A stretch of 31,137 nt of DNA from Deltaproteobacteria bacterium (GTDB lineage Bacteria > Myxococcota_A > Polyangia > Palsa-1104 > JAEUJZ01), in assembly GCA_017990795.1 (NCBI GenBank), contig JAGNNG010000001.1:2771-33907 (forward strand), in the 5' to 3' direction. Positions 21,871-29,140 of this stretch are shown here, in pieces. The stretch's first letter is position 1. Each line of letters starts with the position of its first letter. Under the pieces are notes generated by a model. It saw only the letters and a list, made by a program, of their open reading frames with translations, was not told the DNA's origin and did not search any database. A program made the position numbers and the translations under genes.

Positions 21871-23298
21871 CTAATGAGCATCCCCGTAGCGCTCTAGCTT
21901 TCGATACAGCGTGCGGCGGTCGACGGCCAGTACCTGCGCCACCAGTGCCTTGTTGCCGCCGAGCACTTCCAGAACGTGCAGGATGTAGCGGCGCTCGATC
22001 TCATCGAGCGAGACCAGCTCCGATGGATCAGGATGGGTTAGCACCAGCTGCTGCGGGCGCCCATCTCGGATTTTTTCGGGTAGATCATCGACACAGATCT
22101 GGTCGTAAGAGGTCAGCGCTACTGCGCGCTCGATGCAGTTTTGAAGCTCGCGCACATTTCCCGGCCACGAGTAGGCCAGCAGCCGCTCGGCTGCCTTCGG
22201 CGAGATACCTTGGACCTGCTTGCCCAGCCGAGCCGTGCAGCTCTCCAGGACATGCTGCGCCAGCAGCAAGATGTCGCCGCTCCGGCTGCGCAGCGGTGGC
22301 AGGTTTATCTGCACGACGTTGATGCGGAAGTACAGATCATCGCGAAAGCGCCGTTCTTCAATGGCCGCTTCCAGATCACGATTGGTGGCCGACAGGATGC
22401 GCACATCAATTGGCACTTCACTGTCACCACCGACGGGACGCACGCGTCGCTCTTGCAGCGCGCGCAGCAGCTTGGGCTGCAGACCGATGGGCAGGTCCCC
22501 GATTTCGTCCAGAAAGAGCGTCCCGCCATCGGCCTGCTGAAAGAGCCCTTTGCGAGCGGCCCGCGCGTCGGTAAAGGCTCCTTTGGTGTGCCCGAATAGC
22601 TCGCTCTCCAGCAGCGGCTCGGGCAGCGCTGAGCAGTTGATGGCAACGAACGGACGATCTCGCCGCGCGCTCTTCTGATGAATCGCTCGCGCCACCAGCT
22701 CTTTTCCGGTGCCGCTCTCGCCTGTGATCAAGACCGACACGTCGGTTTCTGCGACACGACCAACCAAGTCGAACACCCGTCGAATCGCTGGGCTGGTGCC
22801 GACTAGATCCTCGAAGCGCTGCGCCGACGCTACGGCCTGACGCAGGAGCTTCACTTCTTTGCGCAGCGCGCGGTGCTGCACGGCTCGCTGTAGCGCCAGC
22901 GCTAGGGTGTCGACCTCGAACGGCTTCGTCAGAAAGTCATAAGCACCGGCGCGGATGGCCTCGATTGCAGTCTCAAGGCTGCCGAATGCTGTGATGACAA
23001 TGACCGGCACGTCGGGGCGGTTGGCGACGATGCGGCTGCACAGCTCTGTACCCTTTAGTCCCGGCATGTTCAGGTCAACGACCATGGCCGAGATGTTCTC
23101 CTCCGGCAGCAGCTGCAAGGCCGCCAGTGGCTGGGTGCGCCAGATGACATCGAAGCCGCGCTTGCGCAGCCCGATCTCCAGCACCTCACACATGCCGCGG
23201 TCGTCATCAACGACCAGCACGCGCGGCTTTACACCTTCGCGCCCATCTCGGGTCGATGTGCCGTCGGCAGGACTACCGTGAATCGCGATCCTTTCCAT
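21871..23298 (-). CDS. Sigma54-dependent response regulator RR2, paralog of RR1; start uncertain (ATG 23298 or GTG 23220)
   Basis: VLVVDDD, VDLNMPG, GESGTGKE, GAFTDA, FLDEIG, WPGNVRELQN, DRRTLYRKLERYG. The codon aligned to RR1 Met1 is GTA (23232-23230). Confidence 0.92.
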   Translation of the reverse strand: MERIAIHGSPADGTSTRDGREGVKPRVLVVDDDRGMCEVLEIGLRKRGFDVIWRTQPLAALQLLPEENISAMVVDLNMPGLKGTELCSRIVANRPDVPVIVITAFGSLETAIEAIRAGAYDFLTKPFEVDTLALALQRAVQHRALRKEVKLLRQAVASAQRFEDLVGTSPAIRRVFDLVGRVAETDVSVLITGESGTGKELVARAIHQKSARRDRPFVAINCSALPEPLLESELFGHTKGAFTDARAARKGLFQQADGGTLFLDEIGDLPIGLQPKLLRALQERRVRPVGGDSEVPIDVRILSATNRDLEAAIEERRFRDDLYFRINVVQINLPPLRSRSGDILLLAQHVLESCTARLGKQVQGISPKAAERLLAYSWPGNVRELQNCIERAVALTSYDQICVDDLPEKIRDGRPQQLVLTHPDPSELVSLDEIERRYILHVLEVLGGNKALVAQVLAVDRRTLYRKLERYGDAH

Positions 23299-24347
23299 GG
23301 TTCGCTCTCTACCTCGATCCAGCCGCCGTGGTCGCGGATAATTTCCTGCGTGATAGACAGGCCGAGCCCCGTGCCCTCGCCTGCGCTCTGCGTCGTAAAG
23401 AAGGGCTCAAAGATGTGCGCAAGGTCTTTAGGAGCAATTCCTGTTCCATTATCTTCGATGGTGATCGCGACTTGGTCGGTTTCTTCGCCGCCGATATCGA
23501 CGGGTGGACGCTTGCGCACCGGTTGCACCCGAATCGTGACCAGACCCTGCCCTGAAATGGCCTGGATCGCGTTCATCACCAAGTTACCAATCGCCTGCTC
23601 AACCTGATTGGGGTCGACCGGTGCCATCGCTGGCAAGCCATCCACTGCCAGTGTCAGCTCAACTTGTCGCTTCATCGCCAGGGGCCGCAGCAAGTCCAGC
23701 GTGCGCCGGGTTAGGTCCACAAGACTCACCACGTCTCGCTGCGGTCCGCGGCGCCGCGCAAAGTCCAGAAGCTGGCGAATGGTTGTCGCAACGCGGTCGC
23801 TCTGCTCGATGATTGCGCTGGCATGTCGGCGGGCCTCTTCCAGCGTCGCATCGGGCTCGGTGATGAAGCGCGCGCGAGCCGTGATGACATGCAGCGGTGT
23901 CCCGATTTCATGCGCGATGCCGGATGCGACCTGTCCAACCATAGCCAGCCGATCGCGATGACGTAGCTGTTCAACCGTGGCCATATGAGCCGACGTCTCT
24001 CGCCTCAGCAGCGCACGCAGCTGGCCGCGGTCTCGCTGCACGCGCGCAGTCAGCTGGCCGACAGCGACCAGGAAGATTAGCCGCACGGTGGTGTTCCATA
24101 GGTGAGTGATGGTCAGCGCTTCTGCCTGCTGCGCCAAGTCGCCCAGATAGATGCCGAAACCCGCAGCCACCGAGGTCAGCAGCGCAGCCCATCCGCCAAG
24201 CACCCAGCCCGCGAAGGTGATTGGGATGGCGTAAAACAGCGCCATCGAAATCCGCGGCCCGGTCAGCCAATCGAATAAACCTAGCGCGACGACGGAACCC
24301 AGCAGCGCGGCGAGCGTCAGTCCCTTGCGAATGTGCGATGCCACCAC
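23229..24347 (-). CDS. Membrane sensor histidine kinase HK2, paralog of HK1
   Basis: LGLFDWLTGP...FYAIP TM block, QLRHRDRLAMVGQVASGIAHEIGTPL, NLVMNAIQA, DNGTGI, FEPFFTT, GTGLGL. Confidence 0.95.
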   Translation of the reverse strand: MVASHIRKGLTLAALLGSVVALGLFDWLTGPRISMALFYAIPITFAGWVLGGWAALLTSVAAGFGIYLGDLAQQAEALTITHLWNTTVRLIFLVAVGQLTARVQRDRGQLRALLRRETSAHMATVEQLRHRDRLAMVGQVASGIAHEIGTPLHVITARARFITEPDATLEEARRHASAIIEQSDRVATTIRQLLDFARRRGPQRDVVSLVDLTRRTLDLLRPLAMKRQVELTLAVDGLPAMAPVDPNQVEQAIGNLVMNAIQAISGQGLVTIRVQPVRKRPPVDIGGEETDQVAITIEDNGTGIAPKDLAHIFEPFFTTQSAGEGTGLGLSITQEIIRDHGGWIEVESEPWKGSRFTVVLPTAHRPEMGAKV

Positions 24348-24406
24348 CTCTCACAGATAGCACATTGGTCCACACGTGGCACGAACCCCGTTGCTGCTGC
24401 GCTCGA

Positions 24407-24422
24407 TGGCATGGTCGGTGCA
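24407..24422 (+). promoter_or_regulatory. Sigma54 promoter for the orfA-orfB-permease operon
   Basis: TGGCATGGTCGGTGCA, GG-N10-GC, just upstream of the GAGGAGG RBS (24436-24442). Confidence 0.6.
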
Positions 24423-24449
24423 ATCGAACCGACACGAGGAGGGCACTCG

Positions 24450-24953
24450 ATGCACAATCCGCCCCCGTCCCCACCGCCGCGTCGTGTCCCCACATCGGCC
24501 ATCACTGCGTTTATTCAGCGCGATGCGATTAACGAACTGCTGCGCCCTTGGCTTCCAGCAGATGATGAGCGGGCCCTGGTCGTGCGCTGTCTGGTGGACA
24601 CAGGCCCGGCGCACCACTGTGGCGCAAACTATGTCCTACTGCGCCTGCTGGGCCTGGTCCTGGAGCGCGTAGGCGGACCTCCCGCCAGCGGTGCTGCAGA
24701 CGATTCATCGGTAGCGATTCCGCTGCGCCTACCGCCGCCATTTGCTGAGGCGCGACAAGAAGTTCACTTTCCGCTGACGCTACCAACGCGCGCTGTGGCG
24801 CAGCTTGCACCGCGCAATAGCCGTCACTTCGCCGCGATGGTGGACTGTCTGACCGACGGCCCGCCGCAGCATGCACTAGCCAACGCCGCTATTCTTCGTC
24901 TGATCGAATCGGTCTTGATGCAGCTTGGCCTCAACCTTCAGGAGACACCGTGA
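24450..24953 (+). CDS. orfA: hypothetical helical protein (167 aa) with an internally duplicated C-L-x-D-(x)-G-P-x-x-H-x-x-A-N motif
   Basis: Strong GAGGAGG RBS before ATG 24450 (the track start 24333 overlaps HK2 and the promoter); GTGA coupling to the next gene. Confidence 0.85.
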   Translation: MHNPPPSPPPRRVPTSAITAFIQRDAINELLRPWLPADDERALVVRCLVDTGPAHHCGANYVLLRLLGLVLERVGGPPASGAADDSSVAIPLRLPPPFAEARQEVHFPLTLPTRAVAQLAPRNSRHFAAMVDCLTDGPPQHALANAAILRLIESVLMQLGLNLQETP

Positions 24954-25588
24954 GCGAGCTGCCGCGCGGTCTGGAGCAAGCGTTCCTGGTGGCGGCCTCC
25001 GAGCTTGGCTTTTGCTCTGCCGCTTGGCTTTTCGTGCAAGAGCTGGCCGCAGCTGGCGGTGCGCCTCTCGTCGAGCAGCTTCGCGATGAACTCGGACGCA
25101 GCTTTCCTGTGCTCGATGCGGTGGCTGCACAGTGGCTCGATGGGCTCAGCTGGTCAGCCATTGACGTGGCTCCAGTCGTCGCCGCTTGCGCGGGTGCCAA
25201 GACCCTTCTGGTCGTCGGACTGGAGGCCCGCTATCTGGATGCACTGCTGCCAGCACTACCCACACTGCAGATTCGACTCCTGCGCTATTCATCGATGGGA
25301 GATGTGGACTGGGAGCGCATCCTGGCCAACTACGACGCCCGCGTTCGTGCCACCGACCTGGGCTCATTTCAGCAGTGGGCTGGCACGCGTACCGTCGTGC
25401 TGACGTTTCTATATGGCGCCAATGATCATGCGGCCCACGCCAGTCCCGCGTGGCTGCGTCTGATGGGCGAAGATGTGCGCGCACAGTTTCGCAGCTTTGT
25501 CGGTTGGAACATCCTGTCGCGTCCCATGTACGTCTACCCGCGCTGGCTTGTCGAAGTGCCGCGCAGTGACTTCACGGTGCTGGTATGA
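24950..25588 (+). CDS. orfB: hypothetical protein (212 aa), helical N-domain plus alpha/beta Rossmann-like C-domain
   Basis: AGGAG RBS, GTGA and ATGA overlaps on both sides; beta-alpha pattern TLLVVGLEARYLDALL...IRLL...TVVLTF...FVGWN. Confidence 0.85.
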   Translation: MSELPRGLEQAFLVAASELGFCSAAWLFVQELAAAGGAPLVEQLRDELGRSFPVLDAVAAQWLDGLSWSAIDVAPVVAACAGAKTLLVVGLEARYLDALLPALPTLQIRLLRYSSMGDVDWERILANYDARVRATDLGSFQQWAGTRTVVLTFLYGANDHAAHASPAWLRLMGEDVRAQFRSFVGWNILSRPMYVYPRWLVEVPRSDFTVLV

Positions 25589-26913
25589 GCGGGCCACAGC
25601 TCTTGCTAAGCGCGCTGCTGTTCGCTGCGCTCATCCTGCAGGCCGTACTGCCTGCGCTACGCGTCTTGATCGTCTTATCGGCAGCAGCGCTCTCGTGCTT
25701 ACTGGCAACACTGCTAGGTGTCGGAACAACGCATCAGCTGATGGCCGAGGTTCCGTGGGACGTGCTCATCCTGTTGGTGGGCCTAGGGCTACTTTCCGAG
25801 CTATTGGTCGAGTCTCGCTTGTTCGGAATCCTCGCCGTACGCGCCGCTCGCCTAAGCCAAGCACGCCCCTCGCTTGTTCTGTGCTTTTTTGTGGTCGCGA
25901 TGTACCTAGTCAGCGGCCTAGTCAACAACTTGACCGCTCTGATGCTAGTGCTGCCCGTGCTGCACATTCTGCTGAAGTTGATGGGCGTGCATCAGCGCTA
26001 TCTGTCGTGGACCCTGGGCCTGCTGCTAGTCGCATGCAACCTGGGCGGTGCCGCGACACCCATTGGCGACTTTCCTGCGATCTTACTTTTAGGCAGCGGG
26101 CGCATGACCTTCCGGGCCTATCTGATTCACGCTGCGCCACCGACGGTGATTGCACTAGTCATCTTATTGGCTGTGGTCACTCTGATCATTCGTCCCCAGC
26201 GCGGGCTGGAGCGCGACACGCTATCCGCACGCCTGTCGGTTCAGGTGATGAATCAGCTCTATCGCAATGTGCGTTTGGATCGTCGCCGCTTTTACCCTGT
26301 CGCAGGCTTGTTGGCACTGATGCTGATGGGCTGGACACTAATCCCTACGTCAACGGGCATCAGCGCTGACCTGATCTGCTGGCTTGGAGTTGGCACGGCG
26401 CTTCTGCTGAACAAGCATCTAGGCGAGCAGCTTGTGCGTCGGCGCGTCGATATGGAGGCCGTGCTGTTTCTGCTGGCCCTGTTTGTGATGGTAGCAGCCG
26501 TTCGAAGGACCGGAATGTTCGTCGCGGTGGCGCACTTTCTGGGGACGCTGCCCGTATCGCCATTGGTACAGCTGGTCGTGTTCCTGTGTCTGGCCGGTGT
26601 GCTGACGGGAATCTTTTCAGCCGGACCCAGCATGGCTGCGCTCTTGGAAGTCGCGCACACGCTGGCGCAGCGACTGCCACCGCACGCTGTGTACGTTGGC
26701 TTGGCGCTGTCGGTATGCGCTGGCAGCTCGCTATTTTTGACCGCCGCGACATCCGGGCCGATGGCACAAGCGCTGACCGAGCGCGCCGACCTGCGGGGCG
26801 CACAAGGGGAGCCGATCCGCTTTGGCTTCTTTCAGTTCTTACCGACAGGACTTCTTAGCTTCGCCGTGATTCAGCTGGTCGCCCTCGCGTACGCCGCCTA
26901 CAGCGTTCGGTGA
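25585..26913 (+). CDS. Ion-transporter (IT) superfamily permease, ArsB/NhaD/CitMHS/P-protein-like
   Basis: About 11-12 TM; VPWDVLILLVGL, SGLVNNLTALMLVLP, NLGGAATPIGDFPAILL (family motif N.GG..T.IGDPPN), VDMEAVLFLLALFVMV. Confidence 0.88.
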   Translation: MSGPQLLLSALLFAALILQAVLPALRVLIVLSAAALSCLLATLLGVGTTHQLMAEVPWDVLILLVGLGLLSELLVESRLFGILAVRAARLSQARPSLVLCFFVVAMYLVSGLVNNLTALMLVLPVLHILLKLMGVHQRYLSWTLGLLLVACNLGGAATPIGDFPAILLLGSGRMTFRAYLIHAAPPTVIALVILLAVVTLIIRPQRGLERDTLSARLSVQVMNQLYRNVRLDRRRFYPVAGLLALMLMGWTLIPTSTGISADLICWLGVGTALLLNKHLGEQLVRRRVDMEAVLFLLALFVMVAAVRRTGMFVAVAHFLGTLPVSPLVQLVVFLCLAGVLTGIFSAGPSMAALLEVAHTLAQRLPPHAVYVGLALSVCAGSSLFLTAATSGPMAQALTERADLRGAQGEPIRFGFFQFLPTGLLSFAVIQLVALAYAAYSVR

Positions 26914-26954: not shown

Positions 26955-29045
26955 CTACTCAACCTGATTCACAGGGAGACCGCTGCGCTTCTGTATCACC
27001 ACCAGCACGTCATCTTTCCCAAGCGGTCGCTGGGGATCGGGCGGCGCCAATAGCTTGCCATCGCGGGTTTCGATCGCGAGGACATACACGCCAAAGCGCT
27101 GGCGGAAATCCGTCTCGCGCAGCGATAGACCCAGGGCATCCTCAGGCACGCGCATGCGCACCACTGCATCGTCACTGCGATGACTGAGCACGGCCAACAA
27201 GTCATCTAGCTGAACGTCGTTGGCCAGCGTGGAAAACGCCGCGTGCTCGCGCAGGGCCGCTGCACTGCGCGAGGCCACCTGCGCTCGCAGCTCTTTGAGC
27301 ATCGCGGCCCGTTCCAGCACGCCGACAAACATTCGTCCATCGCGCGCGACCACTGGTAGCACATCGACCCCAGCCTGTCGAAATCGCTCCAGCGCAGTGT
27401 ACAGGTCGTCATTTTGACGTAGCGGCTGGGTCGTGGTGTTCATGATGTCCGCAGCAACGACAATCTGATCCAGTTCAGCCAACTCCATGGCGGAAAGCAG
27501 CTCCGCCGTAGAGATGAAACCAAGAAGCTCGCCATTTGCGGTAACAAGCAAGATCGACTGCAGGCCGGGCGGAGTCTTGGTTAGCGCTTCAGGCAGCGGC
27601 GCTTGTGGATGGGTGATGTGCGGCCATTCGTCACGCAGTAAGGAGCGCACCTGGCGCGATTCAAGCCAACTGCGGACGGAATCGCCTGCGTGGGCCGGCG
27701 ACTCCTCCGGCGAGCGGACCTGTTCGGCGTAGACGCCCCAGCGATGCCCCAGTGCGTAGGATGCAACGCTGACCAGCATCAGCGGCACGATTAAGCCGTA
27801 GCTGCCAGTCATCTCAGTCACCATGACGATTGCGGCCAGCGGTGTACGTAGCGATGCCGCCAGTACACCAGCCATGCCGACGGGAATCAGGGCAGCGCGC
27901 AGCGGCTCTGGAATCATCCCTGGCAAGAAAAGCTGAAACAGCGAGCCGGTTGCCGCCCCGACCACACCGCCCATGAACACGACCGGGCCAAACAGCCCAC
28001 CTGCGCTCTCACCGCCCATCATCAGCGCAGTTGCGATGCACTTGGCCAGCACGACCAGGACGAAGCACAGCGCCCAGCCCTCTATCGGGGGCACCCCCAG
28101 CGAGCCATCGAGCGCACCTTGAATAAAGCGGTAGCGCGCATCCATGATCTGCGGAAAAGCCAGCGCGATCACGCCGCCGATAAGACCTGCGATCGCGGCA
28201 GTCGACCAGCGCGGCAATCGGCTACGTCGTCGCAGCGTGGCTGCAAGACGTAGCGAGTGAGAAAAAAAGAAGCTGACCGCTGCGCACAAGCAAGCCAGCA
28301 CCGCGTACGGAACCAGCTCTAGCGGATGGCTGAAGGTCAATCTCTCGGTGCCGCTTAGCAGACGGTGGCCATAGCCGCCAAAAGCCATGAAGGTGGAATA
28401 GCTTGTCACCGACGCGATAAACGACGGCATCAGCGCCTCGACCTCGAACTCCGGTTCGCTGTAAAGCACGCTGGCTGCGAACAGCGCACCGCCCAGCGGC
28501 GTCTGGAAGATTGCGCCCACACCGGCAGCACAGCCAGCAGTCAGAAAGCGTCGCCTTTCGCGCACGCCTCCGCCCAGCTTGTGACTAACTGTCGTGCCGA
28601 TGGCTGCGCACAGCACCGCAATGGCTGCCTCTTTGCCAACTGAGCCGCCGCACGAGATGACGATAGCCGCCGCGAATGCCTTCAGCGCCGCGTCACGCAG
28701 CGACATCTCGGCCCCGCCATGATGGAACGCATCGATCAGAACGGCGGTCCCGTGGGCGCGTGTGGGGCGGCACAGAAAAGCCACGATGACCCCTGAGCAC
28801 AAGCCACCGAGCACGGGCAGCAGCAGCACGCCCCAGCGAAACTCGAACAAGCTGCCCGCCGTCGTATTGGCGATTCGGCCAATCAGCCGTGGAAAGCCCA
28901 GATCCACCAGCGATTCCAGCGCCCGCGCCGCCAGCCCCGACAGCAGACCGACCAGGATGCTCAAAAGCAGCGTTCGAGACCAGCGCGTGCCCATCAGGCG
29001 CGGCAGGGTCCATTGCGTCGGCGTACGACGAGAAGGTGCGTCCAT
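26955..29045 (-). CDS. ClC-family chloride channel/antiporter with a CBS pair and C-terminal RCK_C (TrkA-C) domain
   Basis: HGTAVLIDAFH, GGSVGKEAA, GCAAGVGAIFQTPLGGALF, GGLFGP, TPLAAIVMVTEMTGSY, VY; two CBS repeats; GLSLRETDFRQRFGVYVLAI. Start set at ATG 29045 because track start 29129 overlaps a promoter-like box; ATG 28994 is also possible. Confidence 0.92.
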   Translation of the reverse strand: MDAPSRRTPTQWTLPRLMGTRWSRTLLLSILVGLLSGLAARALESLVDLGFPRLIGRIANTTAGSLFEFRWGVLLLPVLGGLCSGVIVAFLCRPTRAHGTAVLIDAFHHGGAEMSLRDAALKAFAAAIVISCGGSVGKEAAIAVLCAAIGTTVSHKLGGGVRERRRFLTAGCAAGVGAIFQTPLGGALFAASVLYSEPEFEVEALMPSFIASVTSYSTFMAFGGYGHRLLSGTERLTFSHPLELVPYAVLACLCAAVSFFFSHSLRLAATLRRRSRLPRWSTAAIAGLIGGVIALAFPQIMDARYRFIQGALDGSLGVPPIEGWALCFVLVVLAKCIATALMMGGESAGGLFGPVVFMGGVVGAATGSLFQLFLPGMIPEPLRAALIPVGMAGVLAASLRTPLAAIVMVTEMTGSYGLIVPLMLVSVASYALGHRWGVYAEQVRSPEESPAHAGDSVRSWLESRQVRSLLRDEWPHITHPQAPLPEALTKTPPGLQSILLVTANGELLGFISTAELLSAMELAELDQIVVAADIMNTTTQPLRQNDDLYTALERFRQAGVDVLPVVARDGRMFVGVLERAAMLKELRAQVASRSAAALREHAAFSTLANDVQLDDLLAVLSHRSDDAVVRMRVPEDALGLSLRETDFRQRFGVYVLAIETRDGKLLAPPDPQRPLGKDDVLVVIQKRSGLPVNQVE

Positions 29046-29124
29046 TATCAGTTCACGAAGGTCATGAGAAACGCGCGCGCAGTGTTCTACGCAAGTCCGC
29101 AGCTTTGAGCGGTCAGAGAAACAA

Positions 29125-29140
29125 TGCAAGTTCCGTGCTC
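29125..29140 (-). promoter_or_regulatory. Near-consensus sigma54 promoter for the ClC gene
   Basis: GAGCACGGAACTTGCA: CACG and TTGCA are perfect, but the first G of the -24 GG is A. Confidence 0.4.

What the first reader, a model, noticed from the sequence alone, without database searches (positions are those of the whole stretch)
24407..26913. Candidate undescribed transport system: two unknown soluble proteins translationally coupled to an ArsB/NhaD-type permease
Seen: sigma54 box, strong RBS, then orfA, orfB and the permease joined by GTGA and ATGA 4-nt overlaps, divergent from HK2-RR2. I cannot assign orfA or orfB to a named family. Established: IT-superfamily permeases (ArsB, NhaD, CitM, P-protein) mostly act alone or with known partners such as ArsA or RCK domains, and none of those is here. 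Inference: a three-component module of a putative metal/thiol-binding helical protein, a putative small-ligand-binding alpha/beta protein and an ion/anion permease, induced with the osmotic regulon.
Basis: partly seen in the sequence, partly recalled or inferred. Interest (0 to 1): 0.85.

Follow-up and report, generated by a model that had tools for sequence, protein, structure and literature searches.

The report
Conserved permease operon with two unknown partners
A membrane permease of the ArsB/NhaD/CitM superfamily is always encoded together with two small soluble proteins that belong to no named family, one with no known structural relative, so this is a real, undescribed three-part transport module whose substrate is still unknown.

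Summary
The window carries a sigma54-type box (24407-24422, GG-N10-GC), a GGAGG ribosome site, then orfA (167 aa), orfB (212 aa) and a 442-aa CitMHS-type permease joined by GTGA and ATGA overlaps.

orfA and orfB match nothing in Pfam, NCBIfam, PADLOC or PDB sequences. All three genes lie in the same order in all 71 related loci that were long enough, mostly Myxococcota. One Burkholderiales and one Planctomycetota clade nest inside them. Nothing else nearby is conserved.

In 300 sampled genomes of the phylum, orfB and a close permease orthologue occur in the same four genomes, side by side.

- **orfA:** a confident AlphaFold model of an internally duplicated helical protein with no PDB or BFVD neighbour.
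- **orfB:** a helical plus Rossmann-like fold, weakly eIF2B-like.

Distant versions of the module keep the A/B/permease triad, add an ABC exporter, and in some fuse a response-regulator receiver domain to orfA. A sigma54 box and an activator recur there too.

My best reading is that A and B form a cytoplasmic sensing or gating unit on the permease. That is inference. The substrate is unknown and the "osmotic regulon" link is unsupported. Other notes from this scan cover orfA and orfB on this same window only.

The parts
24330..24366 (.). Inverted repeat AATGTGCGAT-N17-ATAGCACATT. It is a candidate enhancer (UAS) for the adjacent NtrC-type activator, with its centre about 60 nt upstream of the -24 GG.
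   Evidence: the position fits sigma54 enhancers by established knowledge; function not tested
24407..24422 (+). Sigma54-type -24/-12 promoter box TGGCATGGTCGGTGCA (GG-N10-GC).
   Evidence: Similar boxes lie upstream of orfA in 11 of 71 relatives against 3.6% of controls, and in distant locus L086.
24438..24442 (+). Shine-Dalgarno GGAGG, 7 nt before the orfA ATG.
24450..24953 (+). orfA, 167 aa. A soluble, internally duplicated helical protein with two (D/E)GP-x-H...N hairpin motifs, a PPH motif and subfamily-specific Cys47/Cys133. It belongs to no named family and has no structural neighbour.
24950..25588 (+). orfB, 212 aa, GTG start overlapping the orfA stop (GTGA). A soluble protein with an N-terminal helical domain plus a Rossmann-like domain and many invariant charged residues (E18, R50, E92, D97, R123, R170, D175). 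It belongs to no named family.
25585..26913 (+). Permease, 442 aa, ATG overlapping the orfB stop (ATGA). Pfam CitMHS (IT superfamily). It forms a distinct subfamily with the motifs VNNLT, TPIGDFPA, SAGPS and TAATSGP.
23229..24347 (-). Divergent membrane-anchored histidine kinase (HisKA + HATPase_c). Probable sensor controlling the operon in this clade.
21871..23298 (-). NtrC-type response regulator (REC + sigma54 AAA+ + HTH_8). Probable activator of the sigma54 promoter.

Best explanation
orfA, orfB and the permease form one self-contained operon that is inherited and transferred as a unit. It encodes a distinct subfamily of IT-superfamily (CitMHS/ArsB/NhaD-like, nearest model MamN) secondary permease that works only with two cytoplasmic partner proteins from two previously unnamed families.

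**Shown**
- The three genes occur together in a fixed order, mostly with 4-nt start/stop overlaps.
- They co-occur strictly and diverge in parallel.
- Both partners lack any known family. orfA is an internally duplicated helical protein with no structural neighbour, and orfB is helical plus Rossmann-like.

**Inferred**
- A and B are made in fixed proportion with the permease and sit on its cytoplasmic face as a sensing and gating unit.
- orfA is the signal-receiving part. It has a pseudo-symmetric His-containing site and often His/Pro-rich tails. In distant versions it is fused to a phospho-receiver domain.
- orfB binds a small cytoplasmic ligand, possibly a phosphorylated sugar or nucleotide.

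In this genome the operon is transcribed from a sigma54 promoter, most likely under the adjacent histidine kinase and NtrC-type activator. The transported solute is unknown. An invariant Asp and paired Asn in the hairpin motifs suggest cation coupling or a cation substrate.
For: **Order and linkage**
- A-B-P order was found in 71 of 71 loci with enough sequence. The two exceptions are cut by contig ends.
- No other conserved neighbour exists.
- The A-B junction is a 4-nt overlap in 55 of 71 loci and a 1-nt overlap in 11. The B-P junction is a 4-nt overlap in 45 and a 1-nt overlap in 11.

**Co-occurrence and co-evolution**
- In 300 sampled genomes of the phylum, orfB and a permease orthologue of 53-60% identity occur in the same 4 genomes, adjacent to each other. 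The next-best permease is 34% identical and has no B-sized ORF upstream.
- Pairwise distances of A, B and P correlate at r = 0.78-0.83.
- A joint tree shows Myxococcota with nested Burkholderiales and Planctomycetota clades.

**Distant versions**
- They keep A-like, B-like and CitMHS genes together (L076/77, L083, L086, L087/88; different order in L079/80).
- The B-like genes are confirmed by hhalign at 99.5% and 97.8% probability.
- REC-orfA fusions exist, with intact receiver motifs visible in the sequences.
- A sigma54 activator and a sigma54 box recur in L086.

**Structures**
- AlphaFold models are confident: A pLDDT 92, B pLDDT 94.
- A has no PDB or BFVD neighbour.
- B's best hits are eIF2B-family proteins, E = 5e-5, TM 0.4-0.53.
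- The orfA internal repeat scores z = 8.4.
Against: - No direct evidence of physical contact between A, B and the permease. A complex could not be modelled and no natural A-B or B-P fusion was found. The two A/P hybrid ORFs look like deletions or misassemblies.
- The many invariant charged residues in orfB and the His/Asp/Asn motifs in orfA would fit enzyme active sites as well as regulatory sites.
- orfB's fold match is weak (TM about 0.5).
- The ABC exporter in distant versions hints at a more complex transport or metabolic role.
- No expression or substrate data.
Confidence: 0.5

Rival explanations
1. Metabolic coupling. orfA and/or orfB are enzymes that make or consume the permease's substrate in the cytoplasm. 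They would either convert a compound into the exported form, as GAPDH does for ArsJ, or trap an imported one. The permease would need no regulatory partner.
For: - orfB has many invariant charged residues (E18, R50, E92, D97, R123, R170, D175).
- orfB's nearest folds include sugar-phosphate isomerases of the eIF2B/MtnA/R15P-isomerase group.
- orfA keeps invariant His, Asp and Asn in a pseudo-symmetric arrangement.
- A phosphofructokinase follows the module in two Burkholderiales loci.
- An ABC exporter joins the module in distant versions.
Against: - No match to any enzyme family by sequence.
- The fold match of B is weak.
- A receiver-domain fusion to orfA is more typical of a signalling output.
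- No other metabolic gene is conserved nearby.
Confidence: 0.25
2. Metal or metalloid handling. orfA, with orfB, is a cytoplasmic metallochaperone or metal sensor that hands a cation or metalloid to an efflux permease, loosely as ArsD/ArsA serve ArsB.
For: - The N-terminal tails of orfA homologues are His/Pro-rich: 12% His against 4.5% overall, and 33 of 120 tails have 3 or more His.
- Distant members carry poly-His tails or loops.
- Conserved His sits in both hairpin motifs, with Cys47/Cys133 in this subfamily.
- The nearest curated permease model is the magnetosome protein MamN.
- An invariant Asp lies in the TPIGDFPA motif.
Against: - The window's own orfA tail has a single His.
- The Cys are not conserved in the wider family.
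- There is no similarity to ArsD, ArsA or known metallochaperones.
- No metal-resistance genes are conserved next to the module.
Confidence: 0.15
3. orfA and orfB are biogenesis or assembly factors needed only for folding or membrane insertion of this permease subfamily. They take no part in transport or its control.
For: Strict co-occurrence and translational coupling would also fit dedicated assembly factors.
Against: - Secondary permeases of this superfamily are not known to need dedicated cytoplasmic assembly factors (established knowledge).
- The receiver-domain fusion and the conserved polar motifs argue for signalling or ligand binding.
Confidence: 0.05
4. Chance neighbourhood. orfA and orfB are unrelated to the permease and merely sit next to it.
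For: None beyond the lack of experimental data.
Against: - Fixed order in 71 of 71 loci across three phyla.
- Overlapping start and stop codons.
- Identical presence/absence pattern in 300 genomes.
- Correlated divergence.
Confidence: 0.02

Closest known systems
IT (ion transporter) superfamily permeases: Pfam CitMHS PF03600, ArsB, NhaD, MamN, DASS/SLC13
   Same: The permease passes the CitMHS gathering score (121.6 against 31.9 bits). It shows two repeats, each with conserved hairpin-type motifs. Its best curated model is MamN, and public annotations call it 'SLC13 family permease' or 'NhaD/arsenite permease-like'.
   Different: It is far below the MamN (127.6 against 500) and ArsB (25.5 against 457) cut-offs and has no NhaD hit. 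The canonical ArsB-like motifs seen in the neighbouring paralogue P2 (ND, IGNPQN, SNVP, GSIAN) are replaced by NN, IGDFPA, SAGP and ATSGP. This subfamily never occurs without orfA and orfB in the genomes examined.
Secondary transporters with separate cytoplasmic regulatory subunits (KtrAB, TrkAH, KefFC, KhtTU) or with inserted TrkA_C/RCK_C domains
   Same: A membrane permease is co-encoded and translationally coupled with small soluble proteins, one of them Rossmann-like. This is the working analogy for how the module may act (inference; the properties of these families are established knowledge).
   Different: orfA and orfB show no sequence relation to RCK/TrkA, KefF or CBS domains. There are two different partners. 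One has no structural neighbour and is fused to a receiver domain in distant versions.
ArsA/ArsD with ArsB, and GAPDH with ArsJ (arsenic resistance)
   Same: A permease is served by dedicated cytoplasmic proteins that deliver or create its substrate. The permease belongs to the same superfamily as ArsB.
   Different: No ATPase, no ArsD-like protein and no ars regulator or reductase are present. The permease fails the ArsB models and motifs.
eIF2B alpha/beta/delta, aIF2B, MtnA, ribose-1,5-bisphosphate isomerase fold
   Same: orfB's model shares the overall layout of an N-terminal helical domain plus a Rossmann-like domain. These are its top 19 Foldseek hits (rank 20 is a methyltransferase), with best E = 5e-5.
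   Different: TM-scores are only 0.40-0.53 with rmsd of 7-14 A and 7-12% identity. There is no Pfam IF-2B hit and no hit to PDB sequences with a profile. orfB is about 100 residues shorter.

Membership tests
IT superfamily / Pfam CitMHS (PF03600) - permease | Score above the Pfam gathering threshold over most of the profile | tested here: met
   121.6 bits against a cut-off of 31.9, profile positions 10-331 of 336
MamN (NCBIfam NF040989, equivalog) - permease | Score at or above the curated cut-off of 500 bits | tested here: not met
   127.6 bits. It is the best curated model but far below the cut-off.
ArsB arsenite/antimonite pump (NF011980, TIGR00935) - permease | Score at or above the curated cut-off, and ArsB-type hairpin motifs | tested here: not met
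   25.5 bits against 457. The motifs ND, IGNPQN, SNVP and GSIAN of the ArsB-like paralogue P2 are replaced in this subfamily.
NhaD Na+/H+ antiporter (NF038006) - permease | Score at or above the curated cut-off of 80 bits | tested here: not met
   No hit for the window's permease at E <= 1. A distant module's permease scores 35 bits.
DASS/SLC13 (Pfam Na_sulph_symp PF00939) - permease | Full-length match to the DASS profile | tested here: inconclusive
   34.2 bits (cut-off 27), but only residues 54-198 match profile positions 318-462. PDB sequence hits to a NadC-family transporter and PHO90 have E of about 1e-3. This is superfamily-level similarity.
eIF2B / MtnA / R15P isomerase (Pfam IF-2B) - orfB | Sequence-profile match, and a shared fold with TM above 0.5 over most of the protein | tested here: inconclusive
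   No Pfam hit in orfB or 40 homologues. No PDB profile hit. Foldseek E = 5e-5, but TM is 0.40-0.53.
Known partners of IT or cation transporters (ArsA, ArsD, RCK/TrkA_N/TrkA_C, CBS) - orfA and orfB | Pfam or NCBIfam match to the partner family | tested here: not met
   No such hits for orfA, orfB or 40 homologues of each
Sigma54-dependent promoter | GG-N10-GC with TGGCAC/TTGCW-like context upstream of the operon, and an enhancer-binding protein nearby | tested here: met
   The box lies at 24407-24422. The NtrC-type activator is adjacent. The box is conserved in relatives and in L086. Actual sigma54 dependence cannot be tested here.
Response-regulator output domain - orfA-like domain | Occurs C-terminal to a REC receiver domain | tested here: met
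   P0445, P0453, P0457 and P0459 are REC + orfA-like domain. The window's own orfA has no REC domain.
Anti-phage defence systems (PADLOC) | Match to any PADLOC model | tested here: not met
   No hits for A, B or P

The most novel reading that the evidence does not exclude
The module is a new kind of signal-gated transporter. A secondary permease is obligatorily controlled by a two-protein cytoplasmic unit. One component (orfA) is a previously unseen fold that acts as a direct output domain of two-component signalling or of metal sensing. Phosphorylation or ligand binding would then open or close a permease without going through transcription.
Probability: 0.3. Interest if true: 0.8.

Novelty: new variant of a known kind. 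Interest (0 to 1): 0.62.

Why it matters
- **A new subunit composition.** Permeases of the ArsB/NhaD/CitM/OCA2 superfamily are widespread and include medically and environmentally important members, yet many have no known substrate or regulation. Here a whole subfamily appears unable to exist without two dedicated soluble partners, which points to an undescribed regulatory or coupling mechanism.
- **Two new protein families.** Both partners are unnamed. orfA has a confident model with no structural neighbour, and in distant versions it is wired to a receiver domain. That makes it a candidate new output domain of bacterial signalling.
- **It is testable.** The module is present in cultivable, genetically tractable myxobacteria: Sorangium cellulosum So ce56 and Corallococcus macrosporus HW-1 (orfB homologue LILAB_28725).

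Tried and rejected
**Searches that found nothing for orfA and orfB**
- Pfam, NCBIfam and PADLOC, singly and over 41 homologues each.
- Profile search against all PDB sequences. orfB got nothing and orfA got only chance hits.
- Foldseek of the orfA model against PDB and BFVD. Best E was about 0.9 and TM was below 0.26.
- ESM Atlas, by features and by structure. All scores were below the level that means anything.

**Other dead ends**
- Literature: no paper mentions the locus tags or accessions, and none describes such a module.
- Natural A-B or B-P fusions: none. P0403 and P0393 join the N-half of orfA to the C-part of the permease and look like deletions or misassemblies.
- A conserved fourth gene: none in the Myxococcota-type module.
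- The TGGCACGAACCCCGTTGCT site at 24377-24395 was rejected as a sigma54 box because its spacing is 13 nt.
- A sigma54 box upstream of the distant module in L076 was not convincingly found.

- A model of the A-B-permease complex could not be made.
Full report
**What is in the window**

On the + strand there is a sigma54-type box, TGGCATGGTCGGTGCA, at 24407-24422 with the canonical GG-N10-GC spacing. A GGAGG ribosome site follows at 24438-24442. Three genes come next:
- orfA, 24450-24953, 167 aa.
- orfB, 24950-25588, 212 aa, GTG start.
- A permease, 25585-26913, 442 aa.

They are joined by GTGA and ATGA overlaps. Upstream and divergent are a membrane-anchored histidine kinase and an NtrC-type sigma54 activator. 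Downstream and convergent is a ClC-CBS-TrkA_C channel gene. No sigma70-like promoter or convincing internal terminator was found in the stretch.

The permease passes Pfam CitMHS (121.6 bits). Its best curated model is MamN, but it scores far below that cut-off (127.6 against 500). ArsB is a remote hit at 25.5 bits. orfA and orfB hit no Pfam, NCBIfam or PADLOC model, whether searched alone or across 41 homologues each.

**Is the trio real?**

Both small proteins have a few hundred homologues, all annotated 'hypothetical'. Most are in Myxococcota.

A scan of one genome per prokaryote species found 72 loci encoding an orfB relative. Counting two further loci fetched separately, orfA lies immediately upstream and the permease immediately downstream in all 71 loci with enough sequence. 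The two exceptions are cut by contig ends. No other gene family is conserved around them.

The junctions are conserved too:
- orfA/orfB is a 4-nt overlap in 55 of 71 loci and a 1-nt overlap in 11.
- orfB/permease is a 4-nt overlap in 45 of 71 loci and a 1-nt overlap in 11.

In an even sample of 300 other genomes of the window's phylum, orfB was found in four. A close permease orthologue (53-60% identity) was found in exactly the same four, adjacent to orfB. The next-best permease in any other genome is only 34% identical and has no orfB-sized gene in front of it.

Pairwise divergences of the three proteins correlate at r = 0.78-0.83. A joint tree shows a mainly myxobacterial family with one Burkholderiales clade and one Planctomycetota clade nested inside. 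The module therefore moves as a unit.

**The two small proteins**

orfA:
- AlphaFold2 with a 41-sequence alignment gives a confident model (pLDDT 92, pTM 0.85). It has two helix-turn-helix hairpins and a beta-hairpin between them.
- Its two halves align with each other at z = 8.4 against shuffles.
- Each half carries a Pro-rich lead-in, then C-L-x-D, a GP turn, His and Asn.
- Foldseek finds no neighbour in the PDB (best E = 0.87) or in BFVD.

orfB:
- The model is also confident (pLDDT 94, pTM 0.90). It has an N-terminal helical domain and a Rossmann-like domain.
- The 19 best Foldseek hits are all eIF2B-family subunits and their archaeal relatives, with ribose-1,5-bisphosphate isomerase lower in the list (from rank 25). 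The match is weak: E = 5e-5, TM 0.40-0.53, 7-12% identity.
- I treat this as a lead, not as membership.

**The wider family**

A profile of orfA searched against 1.84 billion representative proteins found only 102 clusters. The distant ones are informative:
- They keep (E/D)GP-x-H, PPH and GPPH but not the cysteines.
- Several have poly-His tails or loops.
- Four are fused to an N-terminal response-regulator receiver domain.

Their genomic contexts again show an A-like gene, a B-like gene and a CitMHS permease. Two of the B-like genes were checked by hhalign and confirmed at 99.5% and 97.8% probability. In four of the five contexts (all but L087/L088) a type I ABC exporter is added right after the permease.

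Two of these contexts also carry a sigma54 activator next to the module. In L086 a near-perfect sigma54 box starts 46 nt before the start codon, against 43 nt in the window. So the triad is old. Sigma54 control recurs in distant lineages but is not universal: within the Myxococcota-type family only the window's close relatives (and one Burkholderiales locus, L052) show a good box (11 of 71 loci against 3.6% of controls).

**The permease subfamily**

Alignment of close and distant members shows invariant VNNLT, CNLGGAATPIGDFPA, FSAGP and TAATSGP elements. An ArsB-like paralogue follows the permease in four Burkholderiales loci. At the same positions it has the usual ND, IGNPQN, SNVP and GSIAN. 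The substrate site is therefore distinct from ArsB-type pumps. The invariant Asp suggests cation coupling or a cation substrate, but this is inference only.

**How it most likely works**

The fixed order, the overlapping codons, the strict co-occurrence and the parallel divergence all point to a stoichiometric complex. The receiver-domain fusion marks the orfA domain as something whose activity is switched by a signal. orfB looks like a small-ligand binder.

I therefore favour a cytoplasmic sensing and gating unit on the permease, analogous in logic to RCK-type subunits but built from unrelated proteins. I put about 0.5 on this overall.
- The existence of the conserved three-part module itself is near certain.
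- The regulatory role is the uncertain step.

Rivals are:
- Enzymes coupled to transport (0.25).
- A metallochaperone or metal-sensor role, prompted by the His/Pro-rich tails (0.15).
- Assembly factors (0.05).

This is not supported. Neighbours vary between genomes, although a few are ion-related: KefC-like, NqrA and NfeD, plus ClC in the window. No expression data could be obtained.

**Novelty**

No paper or database family describes orfA, orfB or the module. It is a new variant of a known kind, a secondary transporter with cytoplasmic partners, built from two new protein families. Other notes from this scan on the same window had already suggested the orfA repeat and the eIF2B-like fold of orfB. 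Both were tested here. The repeat is confirmed. The Cys part of the motif is subfamily-specific. The eIF2B resemblance is weak.

Noticed in passing
window 24330-24366: Inverted repeat AATGTGCGAT-N17-ATAGCACATT, about 60 nt upstream of the -24 element. It is a plausible enhancer site for the adjacent NtrC-type activator, and it overlaps the annotated GTG start of the histidine kinase gene.
   Followed up: no
window 24377-24395: A second sigma54 look-alike, TGGCACGAACCCCGTTGCT, whose GG and GC are 13 nt apart instead of 10. Probably not functional.
   Followed up: partly
L047:3536-4843, L052:7974-9248, L059:7952-9250, L061:8016-9308: In four Burkholderiales loci a second, ArsB-like CitMHS permease with canonical motifs (77-79% identical among the four) directly follows the module's permease.
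   Followed up: partly
L054:7954-11816 and L070:7636-11495: In two Rhodoferax-like loci the module is followed by a PAS histidine kinase, a LuxR-type response regulator and a phosphofructokinase.
   Followed up: no
L059: The record is titled Candidatus Intricatilinea gracilis (Chloroflexota). The tree tool's taxonomy places it in Sphaerotilaceae, and its module nests inside the Burkholderiales clade. The contig is probably misbinned or mislabelled.
   Followed up: partly
P0403, P0393 (metagenomic proteins): Hybrid ORFs that join the first ~120 residues of orfA to the C-terminal part of the permease. They are likely deletions or misassemblies rather than natural fusions.
   Followed up: partly
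L076:8930-10726, L079:3996-5828, L083:4539-6353, L086:8940-11132: Distant versions of the module carry a generic type I ABC exporter (ABC_membrane + ABC_tran, MsbA/bacteriocin-exporter-like, no peptidase domain) right after the permease.
   Followed up: partly
L076:5361-5999: A 212-aa protein with no family and no similarity to orfB sits between the sigma54 activator and the REC-orfA gene in one distant module.
   Followed up: partly
window 21871-23298 / 23229-24347: The longest ORFs of the response regulator and the histidine kinase overlap by 70 nt. The regulator probably starts at a later codon.
   Followed up: no
window 26955-29129 (-): A ClC chloride channel with CBS and TrkA_C domains ends 41 nt from the permease stop, convergent with it. 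It is not conserved next to the module elsewhere, apart from one weak match in L010.
   Followed up: partly
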